Assembly (NCBI GenBank): GCA_024673055.1
Contig: GCA_024673055.1_4537.1
Source: a phage
Reading direction: 5' to 3' (one strand)
DNA length: 64,000 bases
This document shows positions 46,740 through 52,664 of the stretch, one piece after another. The notes below the pieces were generated by a model. It had not been told where the DNA came from. It was given only the letters and a program-made list of their open reading frames with translations, and made no database searches. Each line of letters opens with the position of its first letter. Position 1 is the first letter of the stretch. The position numbers and the translations under genes are program-made.

Positions 46740-48815
46740 TTATCTTTTACGGACACTATACGGTTGGTGAAATCCGCTGTTCATTCTACTGTATCCTGTA
46801 GGAGCATTTGTTGTTGTAGGGATAGCTACTGCTTTGAAAGTATTCTCTTTTGACAGAGTATTAAAACAAGAGGCAGCAGCATCGGGAATGTCATCTTTAA
46901 TAGTGGCTGTAGATCTTTCACCATTGAAAGATTCCAATTCTTTATAAAAGTGGGTTAAAGTTTCCACATTAGGGAAAGAATCTTCAACAATATAAACAAA
47001 ACCGTTTTGACACGCACTACTAAAAGGCATAAAACGCTGAAGCTTTTTCTTGTTACCTGGCATAGCATCTGGTTTAACAACAAAACCTTCTAGAATAAGT
47101 TTCTTTGCAGACTCTGTGTATTCTATTGTCCCAGCACCAGATGGGTCTTTAGGAAGCACTACTGTAACTTCTGGTCCATCAATCTTACATTGATTTAGAA
47201 TCAGGTTATCCCTTTCCCCAGGTAGTCTTCGAAACCTTCCGAAAATTTTACTTTTCTCATCCACAGCATCATAATCATAGTCGCCAAAGATGTAGATATT
47301 ACCATCTTGATCTTTACCCATTTTGACAGATGTTGTATAGTCTGGATAACGGTAAGTTTCTGTAGGAACTGAAACAGCTTTATCCCATGCTCGCATTAGT
47401 TTAAGATTGTTAGGAACATCTTTATAAGATATTTTATGTAACCATTCACGTTGAAAGAAAGATTCTTTCTGGATACGTGCAAACCAACAACCGTCCAGAA
47501 GCTGTGCTCTTTTGATAGCTGTTTGTGATTTAAGCTGTGCTAAGTAATTAGGGTTAAGCCTAATGAGTTCTGGGTTATCAAATATTGTCCCACCAATAAA
47601 TACGAAAGTTTGTGGTTCAATAACAACTGTCTCCCCTGTATTAGGGTTTTCCATGAAACAGTTTTCTGGATATTTTTCTTTCAGTTCTTCAGGTGTGTCA
47701 GCAAAAACAGGTTCATCGTTAACAATGATGAAATATTTTTGTTTACCACACATATCTTCTCTAGGATAACCACCCTCATCAAGATAAGGTAACACCCAAT
47801 TCAAAACCCAACTATCTGCGTCAGGGTTACATGTGCACAACATGAAACTTGTTTCTGACTCTGAACGCATACGTCCCAGAAGATAGAGCATTTCATATTG
47901 TGTGAAGTGGGTTAACTCGTCAAAACCTACCATTGAATACTGTGTACCCTGATGGTTTGTTTCTGCTGTTACGTTATCATTTTCCAAATGGTCAAATTTG
48001 AGGGTTCCACCACCAGTGGCTTCAAAAATGATATCCATTGTACTTTCTTTTACGTGTGGTTGTAAAGGAAGATACAAACGTTTTGCTTCTGTAAACAGAC
48101 CACCTGGTTTACGGTGAGCAGTGGTGTTCTTACGGAAAAGTATTCCACCAAACAAAGGGTCTTTGTAGGCGTATTTTAAAGCTTTCAGCAATAGCAGACG
48201 AGACTTGCCGCTATTCCCAGTAACGAAGCAGTGATCGCCACGTCTAAAGACAATATAGCTGCTTGGAGTCTCAAAACAATATTTCTTATCATCTGTTGAA
48301 ATAACCTCGTGTATTTTTAAGTAAGTGCTCTTTTTACCAGGTATGTTAAAAGGAACACGTTTACCGAATGGATTTTCTACATAACCTTGCAGGGGTTTTC
48401 CTATTTGCTGTAATGCAATAAGATCTCCTACAAGAATCTCGAAATGTTTCTTTGATTTCTTTTTCTTATAGAATACAAAACGGTGTTCCATACTAAGTTC
48501 TTGGAATAATCCTACACCATTTGTTATTCTGTATAGGTTATCTCCATTTAAATCGTATTCTACAAAATAAGGTGTTACCAATTCTAAACGCTTATTCTTA
48601 GGATTGTATTGGTAAATATCCTCTCCCGAATATTCACTAATCTGCCTCCAACCATCTTTTGTAAGATATTCCGTTTCAGCAGAAACACATCCAGCGGCAC
48701 CACCATAAATCATAACTTCTGGCATTAAATCCATTGCAAGAGTCTGTTTACCTGGTTGAGCCTTTACCTCAATATCTACTCCAGCTAAACTACCTGCTGC
48801 CTTTTTCTTTGCCAC
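46740..48815 (-). CDS. Terminase large subunit, interrupted by a mini-intein in the Walker A P-loop
   Basis: P-loop split as ...IYGGAAG [159 aa insert] SGKSRLL...; Walker B-like MVGFDELTHF; GTG start. Confidence 0.85.
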   Translation of the reverse strand: MAKKKAAGSLAGVDIEVKAQPGKQTLAMDLMPEVMIYGGAAGCVSAETEYLTKDGWRQISEYSGEDIYQYNPKNKRLELVTPYFVEYDLNGDNLYRITNGVGLFQELSMEHRFVFYKKKKSKKHFEILVGDLIALQQIGKPLQGYVENPFGKRVPFNIPGKKSTYLKIHEVISTDDKKYCFETPSSYIVFRRGDHCFVTGNSGKSRLLLLKALKYAYKDPLFGGILFRKNTTAHRKPGGLFTEAKRLYLPLQPHVKESTMDIIFEATGGGTLKFDHLENDNVTAETNHQGTQYSMVGFDELTHFTQYEMLYLLGRMRSESETSFMLCTCNPDADSWVLNWVLPYLDEGGYPREDMCGKQKYFIIVNDEPVFADTPEELKEKYPENCFMENPNTGETVVIEPQTFVFIGGTIFDNPELIRLNPNYLAQLKSQTAIKRAQLLDGCWFARIQKESFFQREWLHKISYKDVPNNLKLMRAWDKAVSVPTETYRYPDYTTSVKMGKDQDGNIYIFGDYDYDAVDEKSKIFGRFRRLPGERDNLILNQCKIDGPEVTVVLPKDPSGAGTIEYTESAKKLILEGFVVKPDAMPGNKKKLQRFMPFSSACQNGFVYIVEDSFPNVETLTHFYKELESFNGERSTATIKDDIPDAAASCFNTLSKENTFKAVAIPTTTNAPTGYSRMNSGFHQPYSVRKR
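48213..48689 (-). mobile_element. Mini-intein (159 aa) inserted in terminase P-loop
   Basis: Insert starts with Cys (CVSAETEYLTKDGWRQISEYSGEDIYQYN, block A-like), has an (S/T)xxH block B (SMEHRF), ends ...FVTGN with Ser at +1; excision would restore GGAAGSGKS. Confidence 0.75.
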
Positions 48816-50176: not shown

Positions 50177-50202
50177 AGCAAAAAGCCTCCAATAAGGAGG
50201 CT
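50177..50202 (-). terminator. Rho-independent terminator (minus strand) ending the tRNA operon
   Basis: On the minus strand AGCCUCC-UUAUU-GGAGGCU followed by UUUUUGCU. Confidence 0.55.
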
Positions 50203-50315: not shown

Positions 50316-50394
50316 TGGAGGCGGGAATCGGATTCGAACCGATGATCTCCAGCATATGAAACTGGCGAGGACGACCAGACTCCTCTATCCCGCT
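50316..50394 (-). tRNA. tRNA-Met (anticodon CAT), CCA encoded
   Basis: Hand-folded cloverleaf: T-arm ATCGG-TTCGAAT-CCGAT, anticodon stem CCAGT/GCTGG with loop TTCATAT, D-stem GAGG/CCTC; the 1-72 pair is A-C (unpaired). Confidence 0.6.
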
Positions 50395-50400
50395 ATTATG

Positions 50401-50470
50401 TATCCCGTGCTGGATTCGAACCAGCATCACAATAAGTTGTGGAACTCTTATCCTGTAAGTCTAACGGGAA
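50401..50470 (-). tRNA. tRNA-like element with aberrant anticodon arm (possible pseudo-tRNA)
   Basis: Good T-arm (GCTGG-TTCGAAT-CCAGC) and near-complementary acceptor, but the anticodon region folds only as CACAA-CTTA-TTGTG (4-nt loop). Confidence 0.3.
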
Positions 50471-50472
50471 AC

Positions 50473-50546
50473 TGGTTGTTTCGACAAGAATCGAACTTGT
50501 GTCTCACGATTATCAGTCGTGGGTTCTACCATTGAACTACGAAACA
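50473..50546 (-). tRNA. tRNA-Ile (anticodon GAT), CCA encoded
   Basis: Acceptor TGTTTCG/CGAAACA, D-arm GTTC-AATGGTA-GAAC, anticodon stem CACGA/TCGTG with loop CTGATAA, T-arm ACAAG-TTCGATT-CTTGT. Confidence 0.7.
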
Positions 50547-50552
50547 TTTGAT

Positions 50553-50629
50553 TGGTCGGAATTGCAGGATTCGAACCTGCGACCCTACGCTCCCAAAGCG
50601 TATGCTCTACCAAACTGAGCTAAATTCCG
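50553..50629 (-). tRNA. tRNA-Pro (anticodon TGG), CCA encoded
   Basis: Acceptor CGGAATT/AATTCCG, D-arm GCTC...GAGC, anticodon stem TACGC/GCGTA with loop TTTGGGA, T-arm GCAGG-TTCGAAT-CCTGC. Confidence 0.7.
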
Positions 50630-50634
50630 TTATA

Positions 50635-50710
50635 TGGCTGGTCTGTCTGGATTTGAACCAAACCTACGACAGTCAAAGTGTCGTGTGCTACCGGACTACA
50701 CTACAAACCA
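50635..50710 (-). tRNA. tRNA-Gln (anticodon TTG), CCA encoded
   Basis: Acceptor TGGTTTG/CAGACCA (one GU pair), anticodon stem CGACA/TGTCG with loop CTTTGAC, T-arm TTTGG-TTCAAAT-CCAGA. Confidence 0.65.
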
Positions 50711-50808
50711 ATAAATCATTTAATGAAGGGCAACCAGAAGAGGTGTGAGAGAAGGAGAAAACCATGAGTAAAAGAGAAAGTTTTCTGGCAACCCTTTATT
50801 AAATAATT

Positions 50809-50882
50809 TGGAGCGTTCTACGAGGATCGAACTCGTGCCGCCGACTTGGAAGGACGGAATGCTACCGCTACACCAAGAACGC
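50809..50882 (-). tRNA. tRNA-Gly (anticodon TCC), CCA encoded
   Basis: Acceptor GCGTTCT/AGAACGC, anticodon loop CTTCCAA (stem has one U-U mismatch), T-arm ACGAG-TTCGATC-CTCGT. Confidence 0.6.
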
Positions 50883-50893
50883 CCTACATCTTT

Positions 50894-50923
50894 ACTATAC
50901 TACATTTTACTATTGGTTGTCAA
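50894..50923 (-). promoter_or_regulatory. Sigma70-like promoter (minus strand) for downstream tRNAs
   Basis: On the minus strand AACTATTGACAA, 18 bp, TATAGT, just upstream of tRNA-Gly. Confidence 0.5.
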
Positions 50924-51383
50924 TAGTTTTATTGAGTGGGACAGTGACGAGTATCCCGTTGGGTGACTAGCCCTACGTTCGGTAAGCTAACTTAAAATAA
51001 TACAAAACCAAAGTCAAATATTATTCTTCGTTGCTGTCGATGGGAGAGCCGCTTCTTCTTTTGCCCCATCCAACCCTACTCCGGTCAAGTTTCAGGTAAC
51101 TCTTTTTGTGATCAACACAATACTAAGAACACTGTCTTTCGAGCAGACCTTGTGCACAGGATACGACGATCAATCACAGTGCTCTTAATGTTGTGTTGTG
51201 AATACTAACCTCGGAACTCATTACCGCGTTTTGGCTCGACCTTACTACAGGTTAGTGAATGTCTTTCGTCCGCTTACATTCAATAAGTTTGCTTTCTTCA
51301 CAACGATAAGAACACTTAACAGAAGATAGGTCTGATTGCCTCGGATGATTTCTCAGTAGCCTAAATGTTCTTACCTGTTATGT

Positions 51384-51458
51384 TGGTGCTCCCACTCTGA
51401 ATCGAACAGAGATCCACGGATTACAAAACCGTTGTAATAGCCATTATACTATAGGAGC
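51384..51458 (-). tRNA. tRNA-Thr (anticodon TGT), CCA encoded
   Basis: Acceptor GCTCCTA/TGGGAGC, anticodon loop TTTGTAA (stem with one U-U mismatch), T-arm CTCTG-TTCGATT-CAGAG. Confidence 0.55.
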
Positions 51459-51464
51459 AAAGCT

Positions 51465-51541
51465 GGGACTCGGCAGGATTCGATACCTGCAATTTCAGAA
51501 GCCTCTTGGCGACTGGGGGTTTACCTTAACTCTACAAGTCC
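51465..51541 (-). tRNA. tRNA-like element, non-canonical (8-nt T-loop, no foldable anticodon arm)
   Basis: Acceptor GGACTTG/CGAGTCC and T-arm-like GCAGG-TATCGAAT-CCTGC, but no 5/7/5 anticodon arm could be found by hand. Confidence 0.3.
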
Positions 51542-51548
51542 ATAATTC

Positions 51549-51634
51549 TGGCGATGAGTATAGGATTTGAACCTATATCGTTCTTTCGAACACGGATTAA
51601 CAGTCCGCCGCTTAAACCATTCAGCCAACTCATC
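51549..51634 (-). tRNA. tRNA with anticodon GTT (Asn codons) on a long-variable-arm, Tyr-like body; CCA encoded
   Basis: Perfect acceptor GATGAGT/ACTCATC, anticodon arm GCGGA-CTGTTAA-TCCGT, 15-nt variable arm (GTTC-GAAA-GAAC), T-arm ATAGG-TTCAAAT-CCTAT; lies adjacent to tRNA-Tyr. Confidence 0.5.
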
Positions 51635-51640
51635 TTAATT

Positions 51641-51728
51641 TGGTGGTGAGTGATGGAGTCGAACCACCCGAATCGCAATGATAACAGATTTACAGTCTGC
51701 CCCGCTACCCCTACGGAATTAACTCACC
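51641..51728 (-). tRNA. tRNA-Tyr (anticodon GTA), type II, CCA encoded
   Basis: Acceptor GGTGAGT/ACTCACC, anticodon arm GCAGA-CTGTAAA-TCTGT, long variable arm, T-arm GGTGG-TTCGACT-CCATC. Confidence 0.65.
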
Positions 51729-51858
51729 TAAATACTAATATTTAAATTCTTTTTAAAATAGCCAGTGTTCACACCACTAACTATGAGTTATCGGTAAGAT
51801 GGTGGGGGCCATCTGCCGAAAGTTTACTCTATTAAAGTAAGCTATATTAAAAAGAACT

Positions 51859-51944
51859 TGGCGGTAGATGTAGGACTCGAACCTACATGCCGTTTCCGAC
51901 TACAGTTTAGCAAACTGTCGTGGCTACCATTTCACCAATCTACC
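51859..51944 (-). tRNA. tRNA-Ser (anticodon GCT), type II, CCA encoded
   Basis: Acceptor GGTAGAT/ATCTACC, anticodon arm ACAGT-TTGCTAA-ACTGT, long variable arm, T-arm GTAGG-TTCGAGT-CCTAC. Confidence 0.65.
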
Positions 51945-51948
51945 AATC

Positions 51949-52039
51949 TGGCGGAAGGAGGGAGAGTCGAACTCCCAAGGCTCTTTCAAGCTCGGCGGTT
52001 TTCAAGACCGTTTTCGTCGCCACGTCGATTTGCCCTTCC
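51949..52039 (-). tRNA. tRNA-Ser (anticodon TGA), type II, CCA encoded
   Basis: Acceptor GGAAGGG/TCCTTCC, anticodon loop CTTGAAA, long variable arm, T-arm GGGAG-TTCGACT-CTCCC. Confidence 0.55.
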
Positions 52040-52047
52040 ATACTTAT

Positions 52048-52077
52048 AATCTAACATAAAATAATGTTAGTTGTCAA
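52048..52077 (-). promoter_or_regulatory. Sigma70-like promoter (minus strand) inside the tRNA cluster
   Basis: On the minus strand AACTATTGACAA, 18 bp, TAGATT, upstream of tRNA-Ser(TGA). Confidence 0.45.
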
Positions 52078-52273
52078 TAGTTTTTTAAAACATTTTACCA
52101 TGAATGGTGACTCCACCAACCCCCGTTCTCAACGAACGGTGCTCTTCGAGCATTTATGTCTTCTAATATAACCGTGGCCTTTGTTTATAATGTCTGACAT
52201 ACTTGCCTCATTCTCTGCCACCATGATCAGTAGTGGGTTCAAATCACTTGAGCTAATTCATGTTAAAATGTTC

Positions 52274-52348
52274 TGGTGTCTTTACAAGGAATCGAACCTT
52301 GACTAAGAGTTTAGAAGACTCCTGTGCTATCCATTACACCATAAAGAC
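52274..52348 (-). tRNA. tRNA-Arg (anticodon TCT), CCA encoded
   Basis: Acceptor GTCTTTA/TAAAGAC, anticodon arm GGAGT-CTTCTAA-ACTCT, T-arm CAAGG-TTCGATT-CCTTG. Confidence 0.7.
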
Positions 52349-52350
52349 GT

Positions 52351-52425
52351 TGGTGGCCCTGGCTGGTTTCGATCCAGCTACCTATCGGTTATGAGCCGAC
52401 AGCTCTCCCATTGAGCTACAGGGCC
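52351..52425 (-). tRNA. tRNA with anticodon CAT (Met, or Ile if lysidine-modified), CCA encoded
   Basis: Acceptor GGCCCTG/CAGGGCC, D-arm GCTC-AATGGGA-GAGC, anticodon arm GTCGG-CTCATAA-CCGAT, T-arm GCTGG-ATCGAAA-CCAGC. Confidence 0.65.
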
Positions 52426-52630: not shown

Positions 52631-52664
52631 ACGTATCCTAACATATGAAGGATACGTTTGTCAA
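52631..52664 (-). promoter_or_regulatory. Sigma70-like promoter (minus strand) for the tRNA cluster, overlapped by a 9-bp perfect inverted repeat
   Basis: On the minus strand AACTATTGACAA, 18 bp, TAGGAT; palindrome ACGTATCCT-N9-AGGATACGT (52631-52657) covers the -10 and spacer. Confidence 0.5.

What the first reader, a model, noticed from the sequence alone, without database searches (positions are those of the whole stretch)
50401..50470. Aberrant tRNA-like element with intact T-arm and acceptor but a 4-nt anticodon loop
Between tRNA-Ile and tRNA-Met lies a 70-nt element with canonical T-arm (GCTGG-TTCGAAT-CCAGC) and near-complementary acceptor strands, but its anticodon region only forms CACAA-CTTA-TTGTG. 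It may be a decaying tRNA gene, a tRNA-derived regulatory RNA, or a processing signal. A second non-canonical element (51465-51541) has an 8-nt T-loop and no foldable anticodon arm.
Basis: seen in the sequence. Interest (0 to 1): 0.4.

Follow-up and report, generated by a model that had tools for sequence, protein, structure and literature searches.

The report
Anticodon-less tRNA-shaped RNA in phage
Inside a phage's cluster of tRNA genes sits a tRNA-shaped RNA gene that cannot read any codon; related copies occur in four unrelated phage groups with their shape preserved, so it is probably a tRNA mimic rather than simple junk, but nobody knows what it does.

Summary
On the minus strand, 50470→50401, between tRNA-Ile(GAU) and a 79-nt tRNA-Met(CAU) of a Phapecoctavirus (phAPEC8-like) tRNA array, lies a cloverleaf. 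It has a canonical T-arm, a D-arm with GG and a 6-bp acceptor stem. Its 'anticodon arm' is a closed hairpin (CACAA-CUUA-UUGUG) and its variable region is only 2 nt. ARAGORN and the Rfam tRNA model do not call it, even at loose thresholds.

It is not a recent wreck of a neighbouring tRNA. It belongs to a small family I did not find in Rfam, GenBank annotation or the papers searched. The family also occurs in Septuagintavirus-type Vequintavirinae, KP8-like Schitoviridae and phage phiEB49, always inside tRNA arrays. Across these clades 9 of 24 base pairs show compensatory changes, and 95% of pair cells are paired against about 40% in slid controls. The loop of the closed hairpin changes in length and sequence.

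The fold, not decoding, appears to be selected. The inferred product is a co-transcribed tRNA mimic excised by RNase P; its function is unknown.

The copy in this window lacks an encoded CCA and the 1-72 pair, and is the most polymorphic segment locally. A decaying relic therefore remains a serious rival. The second element (51465-51541) behaves similarly: 8-nt T-loop, closed hairpin, compensatory changes between two alleles.

The parts
50401..50470 (-). el1: the whole tRNA-shaped, anticodon-less element (70 nt; model R1 matches 50398-50470)
   Evidence: Sequence; cloverleaf minimum-free-energy fold, z=-3.3; 93.1 bits with family model R1, against <=40 bits for true tRNAs
50464..50470 (-). Acceptor 5' strand, U1 U2 C3 C4 C5 G6 U7. 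U1 faces U72, so only 6 pairs form.
   Evidence: pairs 2-71 and 3-70 covary across clades
50442..50463 (-). U8 A9 plus the D-arm (GACUUA-CAGGA-UAAG-[AGU bulge]-UC), containing G18 G19
   Evidence: The outer pair 11-28 (A1 columns) changes G-C to A-U in this genus. The register of this arm is the least certain part of the fold.
50428..50441 (-). Closed 'anticodon' hairpin: CACAA-CUUA-UUGUG (5 bp plus a 4-nt loop)
   Evidence: Homologous stems in other clades are 6 bp with 5-6-nt loops of different sequence. Within the genus the loop varies (C to U, deletion of U) and the stem shows A-U to G.U.
50426..50427 (-). 2-nt variable region (AU)
   Evidence: shared by all clades of the family
50409..50425 (-). 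Canonical T-arm: GCUGG-UUCGAAU-CCAGC
   Evidence: The first stem pair covaries (G-C / A-U / G.U) and the third covaries (U-A / A-U) across clades.
50398..50408 (-). Acceptor 3' strand ACGGGA, then U72 A73 and CAU. There is no encoded CCA; half of the genus has A-CCU instead.
   Evidence: The other clades end in G-CCA, A-CCA or CCA.
50473..50546 (-). tRNA-Ile(GAU), the upstream neighbour in the transcript (2-nt spacer)
   Evidence: 72 bits
50316..50394 (-). 79-nt tRNA-Met(CAU), the downstream neighbour
   Evidence: 50 bits
50894..50923 (-). Sigma-70-like promoter (TTGACA-18-TATAGT, 11 of 12 matches) upstream of tRNA-Gly. It is the likely start of the unit Gly-Gln-Pro-Ile-el1-Met.
   Evidence: consensus match only
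50184..50202 (-). Intrinsic-terminator-like hairpin plus U-run after tRNA-Met; the likely end of the unit
51465..51541 (-). el2: a second tRNA-shaped element between tRNA-Asn and tRNA-Thr. It has a 7-bp acceptor, an 8-nt T-loop, a closed hairpin with a 4-nt loop, and no CCA.
   Evidence: Two alleles in Stephanstirmvirinae differ by compensatory changes in the T-stem and acceptor.

Best explanation
el1 is a genuine tRNA-derived RNA gene that does not decode. It is one member of a small, horizontally spread family of tRNA-shaped RNAs carried in the tRNA arrays of enterobacterial phages.

Shown: it keeps the parts of a tRNA that build the L-shape and are read by tRNA-processing enzymes. These are the acceptor stem, U8, a D-arm with G18G19, and a T-arm with UUCGAAU. 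The anticodon arm is closed into a short hairpin and the variable region is 2 nt, so no anticodon can be presented. Across four phage groups the helices are preserved by compensatory substitutions, while the hairpin loop changes in length and sequence.

Inferred: el1 is transcribed with Gly-Gln-Pro-Ile and Met from one promoter. RNase P cuts at its 5' end and at the 5' end of the following tRNA-Met, and exonucleases trim its 3' end. This would release a tRNA-sized RNA of about 70 nt that is neither charged with a fixed amino acid nor used by the ribosome. It would act through its tRNA body, as a mimic or decoy for a factor that recognises tRNA shape, or as a folding and processing module of the operon.

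The copy in this genus has lost the encoded CCA and the 1-72 pair. It is therefore either a CCA-independent version or a weakened one.
For: Fold and uniqueness.

Not a canonical tRNA.

Homologues: 81-86% identity in Vequintavirinae W70/A73/A7_1/UPEC06/LTH01, 76% (to the W70 copy) in about 10 KP8-like Klebsiella phages, and 79% to the phiEB49 'tRNA-Val'. Each copy lies inside a tRNA array, but beside different neighbours: Ile/Met, Tyr/CDS or Pro, Gln/tRNA, Arg/CDS.

Covariation: 95.4% of pair cells are paired, against 36-44% when partners are slid. Nine of 24 pairs change on both sides, and 0 of 500 shuffles reach the observed values. RNAalifold independently recovers the acceptor, closed hairpin and T-arm.

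The closed hairpin is shared by the KP8, W70 and el1 clades. Since they split, it has gained a C-G to U-A double change and an A-U to G.U change. So the non-decoding architecture predates changes that preserve the structure.

Family model R1 scores members at 78-99 bits and true tRNAs at <=40 bits.

el1 versus the W70 copy is 81.6% identical. That is higher than any same-anticodon tRNA pair between the two arrays (60-75%).

Within the genus, el1 is present in all 78 full-length matches. Variable sites avoid paired positions: 3 of 44 paired against 8 of 26 unpaired, Fisher p=0.015. All common polymorphisms lie in loops, the bulge or the tail, or preserve a wobble pair.

Promoter and terminator bracket the unit.
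Against: el1 is the most polymorphic segment of the local region. Nucleotide diversity (pi) is 0.042, against 0.013 for the 207-nt non-coding spacer, 0.021 for tRNA-Met and 0.005 for tRNA-Ile.

Single genomes carry changes that hit conserved tRNA features. These are G18 to A, a D-stem G to U, a T-stem G to A mismatch, and an extra A in the T-loop.

The encoded CCA is gone (ACAU or ACCU), position 1 faces U or C, and the loop is 3-4 nt with indels. All of this is what a dying gene looks like.

Only four or five independent lineages support the covariation, so each covarying pair reflects one or two events.

There is no expression, processing or binding data. No conserved loop sequence or acceptor identity elements point to a partner. 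The D-arm register is uncertain.
Confidence: 0.5

Rival explanations
1. Dead relic. el1 is a tRNA (or tRNA-like) gene that lost its function in the Phapecoctavirus lineage. It persists only because it is short, sits between two needed tRNAs and is still harmlessly excised. The compensatory changes date from when its ancestors worked.
For: It has the highest nucleotide diversity in the region. It has lost the CCA and the 1-72 pair, its loop carries indels, and there are singleton hits on G18, the D-stem, the T-stem and the T-loop. No tRNA finder accepts it. It is absent from the sister genera Justusliebigvirus and the 19-tRNA clade, so it is dispensable for the subfamily.
Against: Common polymorphisms avoid the stems (p=0.015). 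At least one double compensatory change (11-28, G-C to A-U), and probably a second (50-66), maps to the el1 branch when KP8 and phiEB49 are used as outgroups. The element is never deleted in 78 genomes, although the array around it is rearranged and tRNA-Pro alleles are swapped. No parent tRNA is found in related arrays or in E. coli genomes.
Confidence: 0.35
2. Cis-acting processing or insulating module only. The tRNA-like fold matters because it gives RNase P a cleavage site 2 nt after tRNA-Ile. It also keeps the polycistronic precursor from misfolding. The excised piece itself is degraded and has no function in trans.
For: Spacers to the upstream tRNA are very short in three of four clades (1-3 nt). 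The conserved parts are exactly those RNase P reads: inner acceptor, T-arm and elbow. The acceptor-top pairs and the discriminator vary between clades, so no common charging identity exists. Other spacers of the array are also strongly structured.
Against: True tRNAs in the same array already lie 5-6 nt apart without such a module. Deleting el1 would simply put Ile next to Met. Independent spread to four phage groups beside different neighbours is hard to explain for a purely local spacer.
Confidence: 0.1
3. An unusual but working decoding tRNA (for example with a non-standard anticodon loop), or a protein-coding stretch as some GenBank records annotate ('hypothetical protein').
For: phiEB49's relative has a 7-nt loop, UUAACAA, with U33 and A37, and ARAGORN calls it tRNA-Val(AAC). 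The WPEC and ETEC-TG records place a hypothetical protein over the region.
Against: Loop length is 3-6 nt and differs between and within clades. There is no U33 and no constant triplet. Even the phiEB49 copy scores only 24.6 bits, below the Rfam cut-off of 29. The ORFs here run across tRNA genes on both strands and are mechanical. The substitution pattern is RNA-type covariation.
Confidence: 0.03

Closest known systems
Canonical phage-encoded tRNAs (Rfam RF00005)
   Same: Same genomic setting (tRNA array, same strand, tight spacing). Same acceptor/T-arm/D-arm plan, with U8, G18G19 and UUCGAAU. Relatives outside this genus encode CCA.
   Different: No 7-nt anticodon loop, no U33 or purine 37, a 2-nt variable region, a 3-nt bulge in the D-stem, and no hit to the tRNA model at E<=10. 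This copy also lacks CCA and the 1-72 pair.
tRNA pseudogenes or 'tRNA-OTHER / Pseudo' calls in phage arrays
   Same: tRNA-derived, non-decoding and ignored or mislabelled by annotators. KP8-type copies are labelled tRNA-Leu, tRNA-Gln or nothing.
   Different: Pseudogenes are expected to lose pairing. Here the helices are kept by compensatory changes across four phage groups, and no functional parent is identifiable.
Non-aminoacylated tRNA-like RNAs made by tRNA-processing enzymes: mascRNA from MALAT1, and gammaherpesvirus MHV68 vtRNAs/TMERs (from my own knowledge; MHV68 papers surfaced)
   Same: A cloverleaf-like RNA with good acceptor and T arms but a reduced or odd anticodon arm. It is excised by RNase P (and RNase Z) and is not used in translation. 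This is the best analogy for how el1 would be produced.
   Different: Those are eukaryotic or eukaryotic-virus RNAs with no sequence relationship. Rfam's mascRNA model hits only a true tRNA here, and weakly. Their role is 3'-end formation or miRNA release, and nothing comparable is attached to el1.
Phage T4 stable RNAs 'species 1 and 2' (rnaC, rnaD) in the T4 tRNA cluster (from my own knowledge, not tested)
   Same: Small stable non-tRNA RNAs of unknown function, encoded within and co-processed with a phage tRNA cluster.
   Different: The T4 RNAs are longer (about 120-140 nt) and are not simple cloverleaves. No sequence comparison was made here.
YrlA / bacterial Y RNA tRNA-like domain (RF02553; PMC4201824)
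   Same: A tRNA mimic with T-arm, D-arm and acceptor-like stem that is not a decoder. It is known in enterobacteria and some phages.
   Different: The topology is permuted and there is a long Ro-binding stem. The Rfam YrlA model does not hit el1; its weak hits lie on true tRNA pairs.
Structurally non-canonical tRNAs such as tRNA-Pyl (review PMC7609411 listed, not read; features from my own knowledge)
   Same: A 6-bp anticodon stem and a very short variable region, as in the W70, KP8 and phiEB49 members.
   Different: tRNA-Pyl has a normal 7-nt loop with CUA and lacks G18G19 and TΨC. The el1 family is the opposite: a normal elbow and no decoding loop.

Membership tests
Canonical tRNA (RF00005) | Scores above the curated cut-off (29 bits) with the tRNA covariance model, or is called by ARAGORN | tested here: not met
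   No hit at gathering score or at E<=10. ARAGORN finds nothing at default or 85% thresholds, and only a nonsense fold at 80%.
Canonical tRNA (RF00005) | 5-bp anticodon stem closing a 7-nt loop with U33, a 3-nt anticodon and purine 37 | tested here: not met
   CACAA-CUUA-UUGUG: a 4-nt loop, 3 nt in some genomes.
Canonical tRNA (RF00005) | T-arm of 5 bp plus a 7-nt loop T54-Ψ55-C56...A58, and G18G19 in the D-loop | tested here: met
   GCUGG-UUCGAAU-CCAGC, with GG in CAGGA. Invariant in the family.
Canonical tRNA (RF00005) | 7-bp acceptor stem, discriminator base, and an encoded 3' CCA (as in every E. coli tRNA gene and the sampled true tRNAs of this array) | tested here: not met
   6 bp plus a U.U mismatch, and the tail is UACAU. 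The neighbouring tRNAs end in CCA. Other family clades do encode CCA.
Canonical tRNA (RF00005) | Variable region of 4-5 nt (class I), and a single nucleotide (26) between the D and anticodon stems | tested here: not met
   2-nt variable region; 17 nt between the D-arm and T-arm instead of 22-23.
Decaying tRNA pseudogene | An identifiable functional parent or orthologue at the same position in relatives | tested here: not met
   Best global alignments to 60 tRNAs of related arrays are poor. Sister genera have Phe, Leu, Val or Met at that place with no similarity. There is no match in E. coli genomes. The nearest tRNA-finder-positive relative, the phiEB49 'Val(AAC)', is itself sub-threshold in Rfam.
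Decaying tRNA pseudogene | Substitutions fall on stems and loops alike, and pairing erodes | tested here: inconclusive
   Between clades pairing is kept (95% of cells, 9 covarying pairs). Within the genus, diversity is the highest in the region, but the common variants spare the stems (p=0.015). The sample is 16 genomes.
Processed, non-charged tRNA-like RNA (mascRNA / vtRNA type) | 5' end made by RNase P and 3' end by tRNA 3'-processing enzymes; stable product | not testable with these tools
   Only inferred, from the intact acceptor, T-arm and elbow and from co-transcription signals.
Processed, non-charged tRNA-like RNA (mascRNA / vtRNA type) | Not aminoacylated | not testable with these tools
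   Indirect only. There is no anticodon, no G3.U70 and no long variable arm. Pairs 1-3:70-72 and base 73 differ between clades (G, A, C, A).
YrlA / Y RNA-like (RF02553) | Match to the YrlA model, with a Ro-binding stem formed by the 5' and 3' ends | tested here: not met
   The only weak YrlA hits are on true tRNA pairs (50489-50608, 22.8 bits against a cut-off of 69). None lies on el1.
el1 family (defined here, model R1) | Cloverleaf with a closed 5-6-bp hairpin in place of the anticodon arm, a 2-nt variable region, a canonical T-arm, and location inside a phage tRNA array | tested here: met
   93.1 bits with R1. Other members score 78-99 bits and true tRNAs <=40 bits. The window copy was part of the training alignment, so its score is partly by construction.

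The most novel reading that the evidence does not exclude
The el1 family, and independently the el2 family, are mobile phage accessory RNA genes. They would be anticodon-less tRNA mimics that phages exchange and keep because the tRNA-shaped body, immune to cleavage in the anticodon or variable loop, binds or titrates a host factor that recognises tRNA shape. Candidates are a tRNA-targeting defence nuclease or a 3'-end-modifying toxin, or a tRNA-processing or modifying enzyme. This would be an RNA-based counterpart of the protein decoys and sponges phages use against immunity.
Probability: 0.2. Interest if true: 0.8.

Novelty: new variant of a known kind. Interest (0 to 1): 0.5.

Why it matters
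Phage tRNA arrays are now read mainly as codon supplements or as replacements for host tRNAs destroyed by defence nucleases. Gene finders report only what looks like a decoder.

This case shows that the tRNA-sized 'gaps' in such arrays can hold tRNA-shaped RNAs that cannot decode. They are nonetheless conserved, structurally maintained and exchanged between unrelated phages. Two separate families occur in this one array.

If they are functional, they form an overlooked class of phage non-coding RNA that uses tRNA mimicry. They would also be an easy target for experiments: deletion, tRNA-seq and pull-down in well-studied E. coli and Klebsiella phages.

If they are relics, they are a warning that covariation inherited from functional ancestors can outlast function. 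They would also explain inconsistent tRNA counts and labels in GenBank records. The same KP8-type element, for example, is labelled tRNA-Leu, tRNA-Gln, a protein or nothing.

Tried and rejected
**Canonical tRNA missed by my hand fold.** Rejected: ARAGORN at default and relaxed thresholds, and Rfam at gathering score and at E<=10, all fail.

**Recent derivative of a tRNA in the same or a sister array.** Global alignment of el1 to 60 tRNAs from the window, L003, L006, L008 and L010 gave only T-arm-level similarity. BLAST to Justusliebigvirus arrays gave nothing.

**Host parent or prophage copy.** There was no match for the W70-type element in 5,426 complete E. coli genomes.

**Widening the family through public collections.**
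- Exact and gapped degenerate pattern scans of IMG/VR, the metagenome collection and GTDB genomes returned only further Phapecoctavirus-like contigs and phiEB49 itself.
- The family census therefore rests on the GenBank phage collection.
- The patterns demanded exact conserved blocks and will have missed diverged members.

**Further copies in this window or in Justusliebigvirus arrays.** A search with model R1 found none.

**Literature.** Six full-text searches found no description of these elements. The Septuagintavirus paper counts only five tRNAs.

**Protein-coding reading.** ORFs across the region overlap tRNA genes on both strands and were dismissed without a protein search.

**Parentage from tRNA-Arg.** The phiEB49 tRNA-Arg(CCU) next to the family member shares the D-loop and T-arm and is the best non-member hit of R1 (40 bits). 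This is suggestive, but I did not regard it as established.

**Not done.**
- I did not run the structure-count tool on el2. Its covariation rests on reading alignments.
- I made no protein or structure searches, since none bear on the finding.
Full report
**Setting**

The window is from a Phapecoctavirus (phAPEC8-like, subfamily Stephanstirmvirinae). The 2.3 kb around the finding match 316 phage records, 70 of them over 80% or more of the query, at up to 99% identity.

The region 50316-52425 is a tRNA array on the minus strand. ARAGORN finds ten tRNAs. Rfam finds these ten plus a tRNA-Tyr at 51644-51728. In RNA sense the order around the finding is Gly, Gln, Pro, Ile(GAU), the element, then a 79-nt Met(CAU).

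A sigma-70-like promoter (TTGACA-18-TATAGT, 50923-50894) precedes tRNA-Gly. A terminator-like hairpin with a U-run (50202-50184) follows tRNA-Met. The element therefore most likely lies in one short polycistronic transcript with five tRNAs. These are consensus matches, so this is inference.

**The observation**

Read on the minus strand, 50470→50401 is UUCCCGU UA GACUUACAGGAUAAGAGUUC CACAA-CUUA-UUGUG AU GCUGG-UUCGAAU-CCAGC ACGGGA UA.

- The T-arm is textbook. U8, A9 and a GG in the D-loop are present.
- The acceptor has six Watson-Crick pairs, with U1 facing U72.
- The 'anticodon arm' is a 5-bp hairpin with a 4-nt loop, and only two nucleotides separate it from the T-arm.
- Seventeen nucleotides lie between the D- and T-arms, where a class I tRNA has 22-23.
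- No CCA is encoded. The tail is A73-CAU, whereas the true tRNAs of the array that I extracted end in CCA.
- The acceptor-plus-T-arm 23-mer occurs once in the window, with none expected by chance at up to three mismatches.

No tool finds a canonical tRNA here. ARAGORN and Rfam at gathering score and at E<=10 report nothing. ARAGORN lowered to 80% of its thresholds yields only an alternative fold with a four-base anticodon.

**It is conserved and has relatives**

Seventy-eight phage records contain the full element at 95-100% identity. None annotates it as an RNA, and a few lay a 'hypothetical protein' over it.

It is absent from the sister genus Justusliebigvirus and from a third Stephanstirmvirinae clade with 19 tRNAs. 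Their arrays carry Phe, Arg, Ala, Leu, Val and Met genes before the 79-nt Met. It is also not a visibly degraded copy of any of 60 tRNAs from those arrays.

Homologues turn up in three other phage groups:

- **Septuagintavirus-type Vequintavirinae.** Five phages (W70, A73, A7_1, UPEC06, LTH01) carry it at 81-86% identity, 3 nt after tRNA-Tyr and unannotated. The genus paper counts five tRNAs only (PMC11370258).
- **KP8-like Schitoviridae of Klebsiella.** About ten phages carry it at 76% identity to the W70 copy. It is annotated variously as tRNA-Leu, tRNA-Gln, a protein or nothing.
- **The drexlervirid phiEB49.** It is 79% identical and annotated tRNA-Val; ARAGORN reads anticodon AAC.

None of these reaches the Rfam tRNA cut-off. 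phiEB49 scores 24.6 bits against 29, and the others are not reported at E<=10. The W70-type sequence has no match in 5,426 complete E. coli genomes.

**Anatomy of the family**

In the alignment of nine distinct sequences (A1) the following are invariant or nearly so: the inner acceptor stem (C4-G69, C5-G68, G6-C67), U8 A9, the D-arm core and most of the T-arm, including the loop apart from one position.

The arm in the anticodon position varies by clade:

| Clade | Arm in the anticodon position |
|---|---|
| W70 | CACAAC-AUAUC-GUUGUG |
| A7_1 | same stem, loop GUAUC |
| LTH01/UPEC06 | CGCAAC-GUCUC-GUUGUG |
| KP8 | CAUAGC-AGGCAU-GUUAUG |
| This window | CACAA-CUUA-UUGUG |

Loop length (3-6 nt) and sequence change freely. 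There is no U33 and no fixed triplet. Only phiEB49 has a 7-nt loop (UUAACAA).

All members share a 2-nt variable region. They also appear to share a 3-nt bulge in the 3' strand of the D-stem. KP8 ends G73-CCA, phiEB49 ends A73-CCA, and the W70 group has CCA directly after the seventh pair. The Phapecoctavirus copies have A-CAU or A-CCU.

**Covariation**

With the structure I specified, 95.4% of pair cells are standard pairs, against 36-44% when the 3' partners are slid by 1-3 columns. Nine of 24 pairs have changes on both sides. None of 500 column shuffles reaches the observed percentage paired, number of covarying pairs or covariation score.

Examples:

- Acceptor 2-72: U-A / C-G / G-C.
- Acceptor 3-71: C-G / U-A.
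- T-stem 50-66: G-C / A-U / G.U.
- T-stem 52-64: U-A / A-U.
- Closed hairpin 32-45: C-G / U-A.
- Closed hairpin 31-46: A-U / G.U / G-C.
- D-stem 11-28: G-C / A-U.

RNAalifold independently predicts the acceptor, the closed hairpin and the T-arm.

The sample is small, four or five independent lineages, and the shuffle control does not account for relatedness. The slid-partner control, which does, is clear.

The closed hairpin is homologous in KP8, W70 and el1. It has undergone structure-preserving changes since they diverged, so the non-decoding architecture is old and was maintained.

A covariance model built from A1 separates members (78-99 bits) from all true tRNAs in 177 kb of related sequence (<=40 bits). 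It finds no further copy in the window.

The identity of el1 to the W70 copy (81.6%) exceeds that of every same-anticodon tRNA pair between the two arrays (60-75%). The element also sits beside different neighbours in each group. This points to independent horizontal movement and retention.

**Variation within the genus**

I compared 16 Phapecoctavirus-type sequences. In the ten genomes with full coverage, nucleotide diversity is:

| Segment | Nucleotide diversity (pi) |
|---|---|
| el1 | 0.042 |
| tRNA-Met | 0.021 |
| 207-nt non-coding spacer downstream | 0.013 |
| tRNA-Ile | 0.005 |

For variable sites, the comparison of el1 with the spacer gives Fisher p=0.06. So el1 is the least conserved piece locally.

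The variation is not spread evenly, however:

- Variable sites hit 3 of 44 paired positions against 8 of 26 unpaired ones (p=0.015).
- Every polymorphism shared by several genomes lies in the hairpin loop (C to U, loss of a U), the D-stem bulge, the variable region or the 3' tail, or turns A-U into G.U.
- The four changes that damage tRNA features are each confined to one genome. They are G18 to A, a D-stem G to U, a T-stem G to A, and an extra A in the T-loop.

This pattern fits continued weak selection on the fold. The loss of CCA and of the 1-72 pair, together with the shrinking loop, fits decay. I cannot separate the two with the data at hand.

**What it most likely is and does**

Shown: a tRNA-derived cloverleaf that cannot present an anticodon. 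It belongs to a family whose fold is conserved by compensatory change and which has spread among unrelated phages of enterobacteria.

Inferred from established tRNA biology: RNase P recognises the acceptor/T-arm stack and the D/T elbow. E. coli separates closely spaced tRNAs by RNase P and trims 3' ends exonucleolytically. The E. coli CCA-adding enzyme can complete CCA-less phage tRNAs, as in T4. The element should therefore be excised like a tRNA to give an RNA of about 70 nt.

It has no anticodon. It also lacks the anticodon-independent identity marks, G3.U70 and a long variable arm. Its top acceptor pairs and discriminator differ between clades. A fixed aminoacylation is therefore unlikely.

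I put 0.5 on a selected, non-decoding tRNA mimic; this is the best-supported reading at the family level. I put 0.35 on the copy in this genus being a relic without present function. I put 0.1 on a purely cis-acting processing or folding module, and 0.03 on an odd decoder or a protein-coding reading. What the mimic would bind is unknown. A decoy for factors that recognise tRNA shape is speculation.

**The second element**

The element at 51465-51541, between tRNA-Asn and tRNA-Thr, is GGACUUG UA ... CAG-UC-GCC-AAGA-GGC-UU-CUG ... GCAGG-UAUCGAAU-CCUGC CGAGUCC C. It has a 7-bp acceptor, an 8-nt T-loop and again a closed hairpin with a 4-nt loop. It has no CCA.

It is 97% conserved in some Justusliebigvirus genomes. 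A 69%-identical allele in others has a different closed hairpin (UCUAGA-AUUU-UCUAGA) but the same 8-nt T-loop. That allele differs by compensatory changes in the T-stem (C-G to U-A) and acceptor (A-U to G-C, G-C to U-A).

The element is a second, unrelated example of the same phenomenon in one array.

**Comparison with what is known, and novelty**

It fails the defining tests of a tRNA and does not behave like a simple pseudogene. It works most like processed, uncharged tRNA-like RNAs such as mascRNA or the MHV68 vtRNAs. It also recalls the unexplained stable RNAs of the T4 tRNA cluster, but it is not a member of any of these families.

Rfam 15 has no model that hits it, and six full-text searches found no description. 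I rate it a new variant of a known kind (tRNA-like non-coding RNA) and of moderate interest.

Noticed in passing
window 51644-51728 (-): tRNA-Tyr(GUA) is found by Rfam (39 bits) but missed by ARAGORN. Some GenBank records of relatives flag it as 'tRNA-Pseudo-GTA'.
   Followed up: partly
window 51953-52039 (-): A type-II tRNA-Ser(UGA)-like gene with an encoded G-CCA and an odd D-arm. Its only hit is the Rfam tRNA-Sec model at 37.4 bits, below the cut-off of 47, and ARAGORN is silent. It is a different allele from the readily called tRNA-Ser(UGA) of relatives L007 and L010.
   Followed up: partly
window 50316-50394 (-): A 79-nt tRNA-Met(CAU) with an extended D-arm and an apparent A1.C72 mismatch. 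It is 100% identical in a Serratia Justusliebigvirus, yet labelled 'Pseudo-CAT' in the phAPEC8 and Mt1B1_P17 records. Its identity (initiator, elongator or lysidine-Ile) is unclear.
   Followed up: no
window 50553-50629 (-); loci L002, L007, L029, L030, L032, L036, L037: tRNA-Pro(UGG) exists as three strongly divergent alleles within the genus (about 20 differences with compensatory stem changes), while the adjacent tRNA-Ile is invariant. This indicates allele replacement by recombination inside the array.
   Followed up: no
window 50711-50808 and 51729-51858 (-): Two array spacers fold into very stable structures (z = -5.7 and -4.2, with 0 of 200 shuffles as good). They are not tRNA-like and their function is unknown.
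   Followed up: no
window 50925-51383 (-): About 460 nt without an ORF or tRNA lies between tRNA-Thr and the promoter of tRNA-Gly. It is moderately structured (z = -2.6). Relatives carry small ORFs or different inserts here.
   Followed up: no
window 50894-50923, 52048-52077, 52635-52664 (-): A repeated promoter-like motif, TTGACA-18 nt-TAnnnT, embedded in a recurring 'TTGACAAC...' context. It suggests the array is split into at least three transcription units.
   Followed up: no
window 46740-48815 (-): The large terminase ORF (691 aa) carries an insertion of about 159 aa, beginning CVSAE... and ending ...FVTGN. It splits the Walker A motif GGAAG|SGKS and looks like a mini-intein.
   Followed up: no
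loci L023 1317-1419 and L024 1246-1475 (-): In KP8-like Klebsiella phages there are sub-threshold hits to the permuted-tmRNA model (33-36 bits against a cut-off of 47) just downstream of the family member. KP8 also has 'tRNA-OTHER' genes, one with a 2-base anticodon call.
   Followed up: no
locus L017 673-748 (-): phiEB49 tRNA-Arg(CCU), directly upstream of the family member, shares its D-loop (ACAGGAUAA) and T-arm. It is the best non-member hit of model R1 (40 bits), so it is a possible clue to the family's origin.
   Followed up: partly
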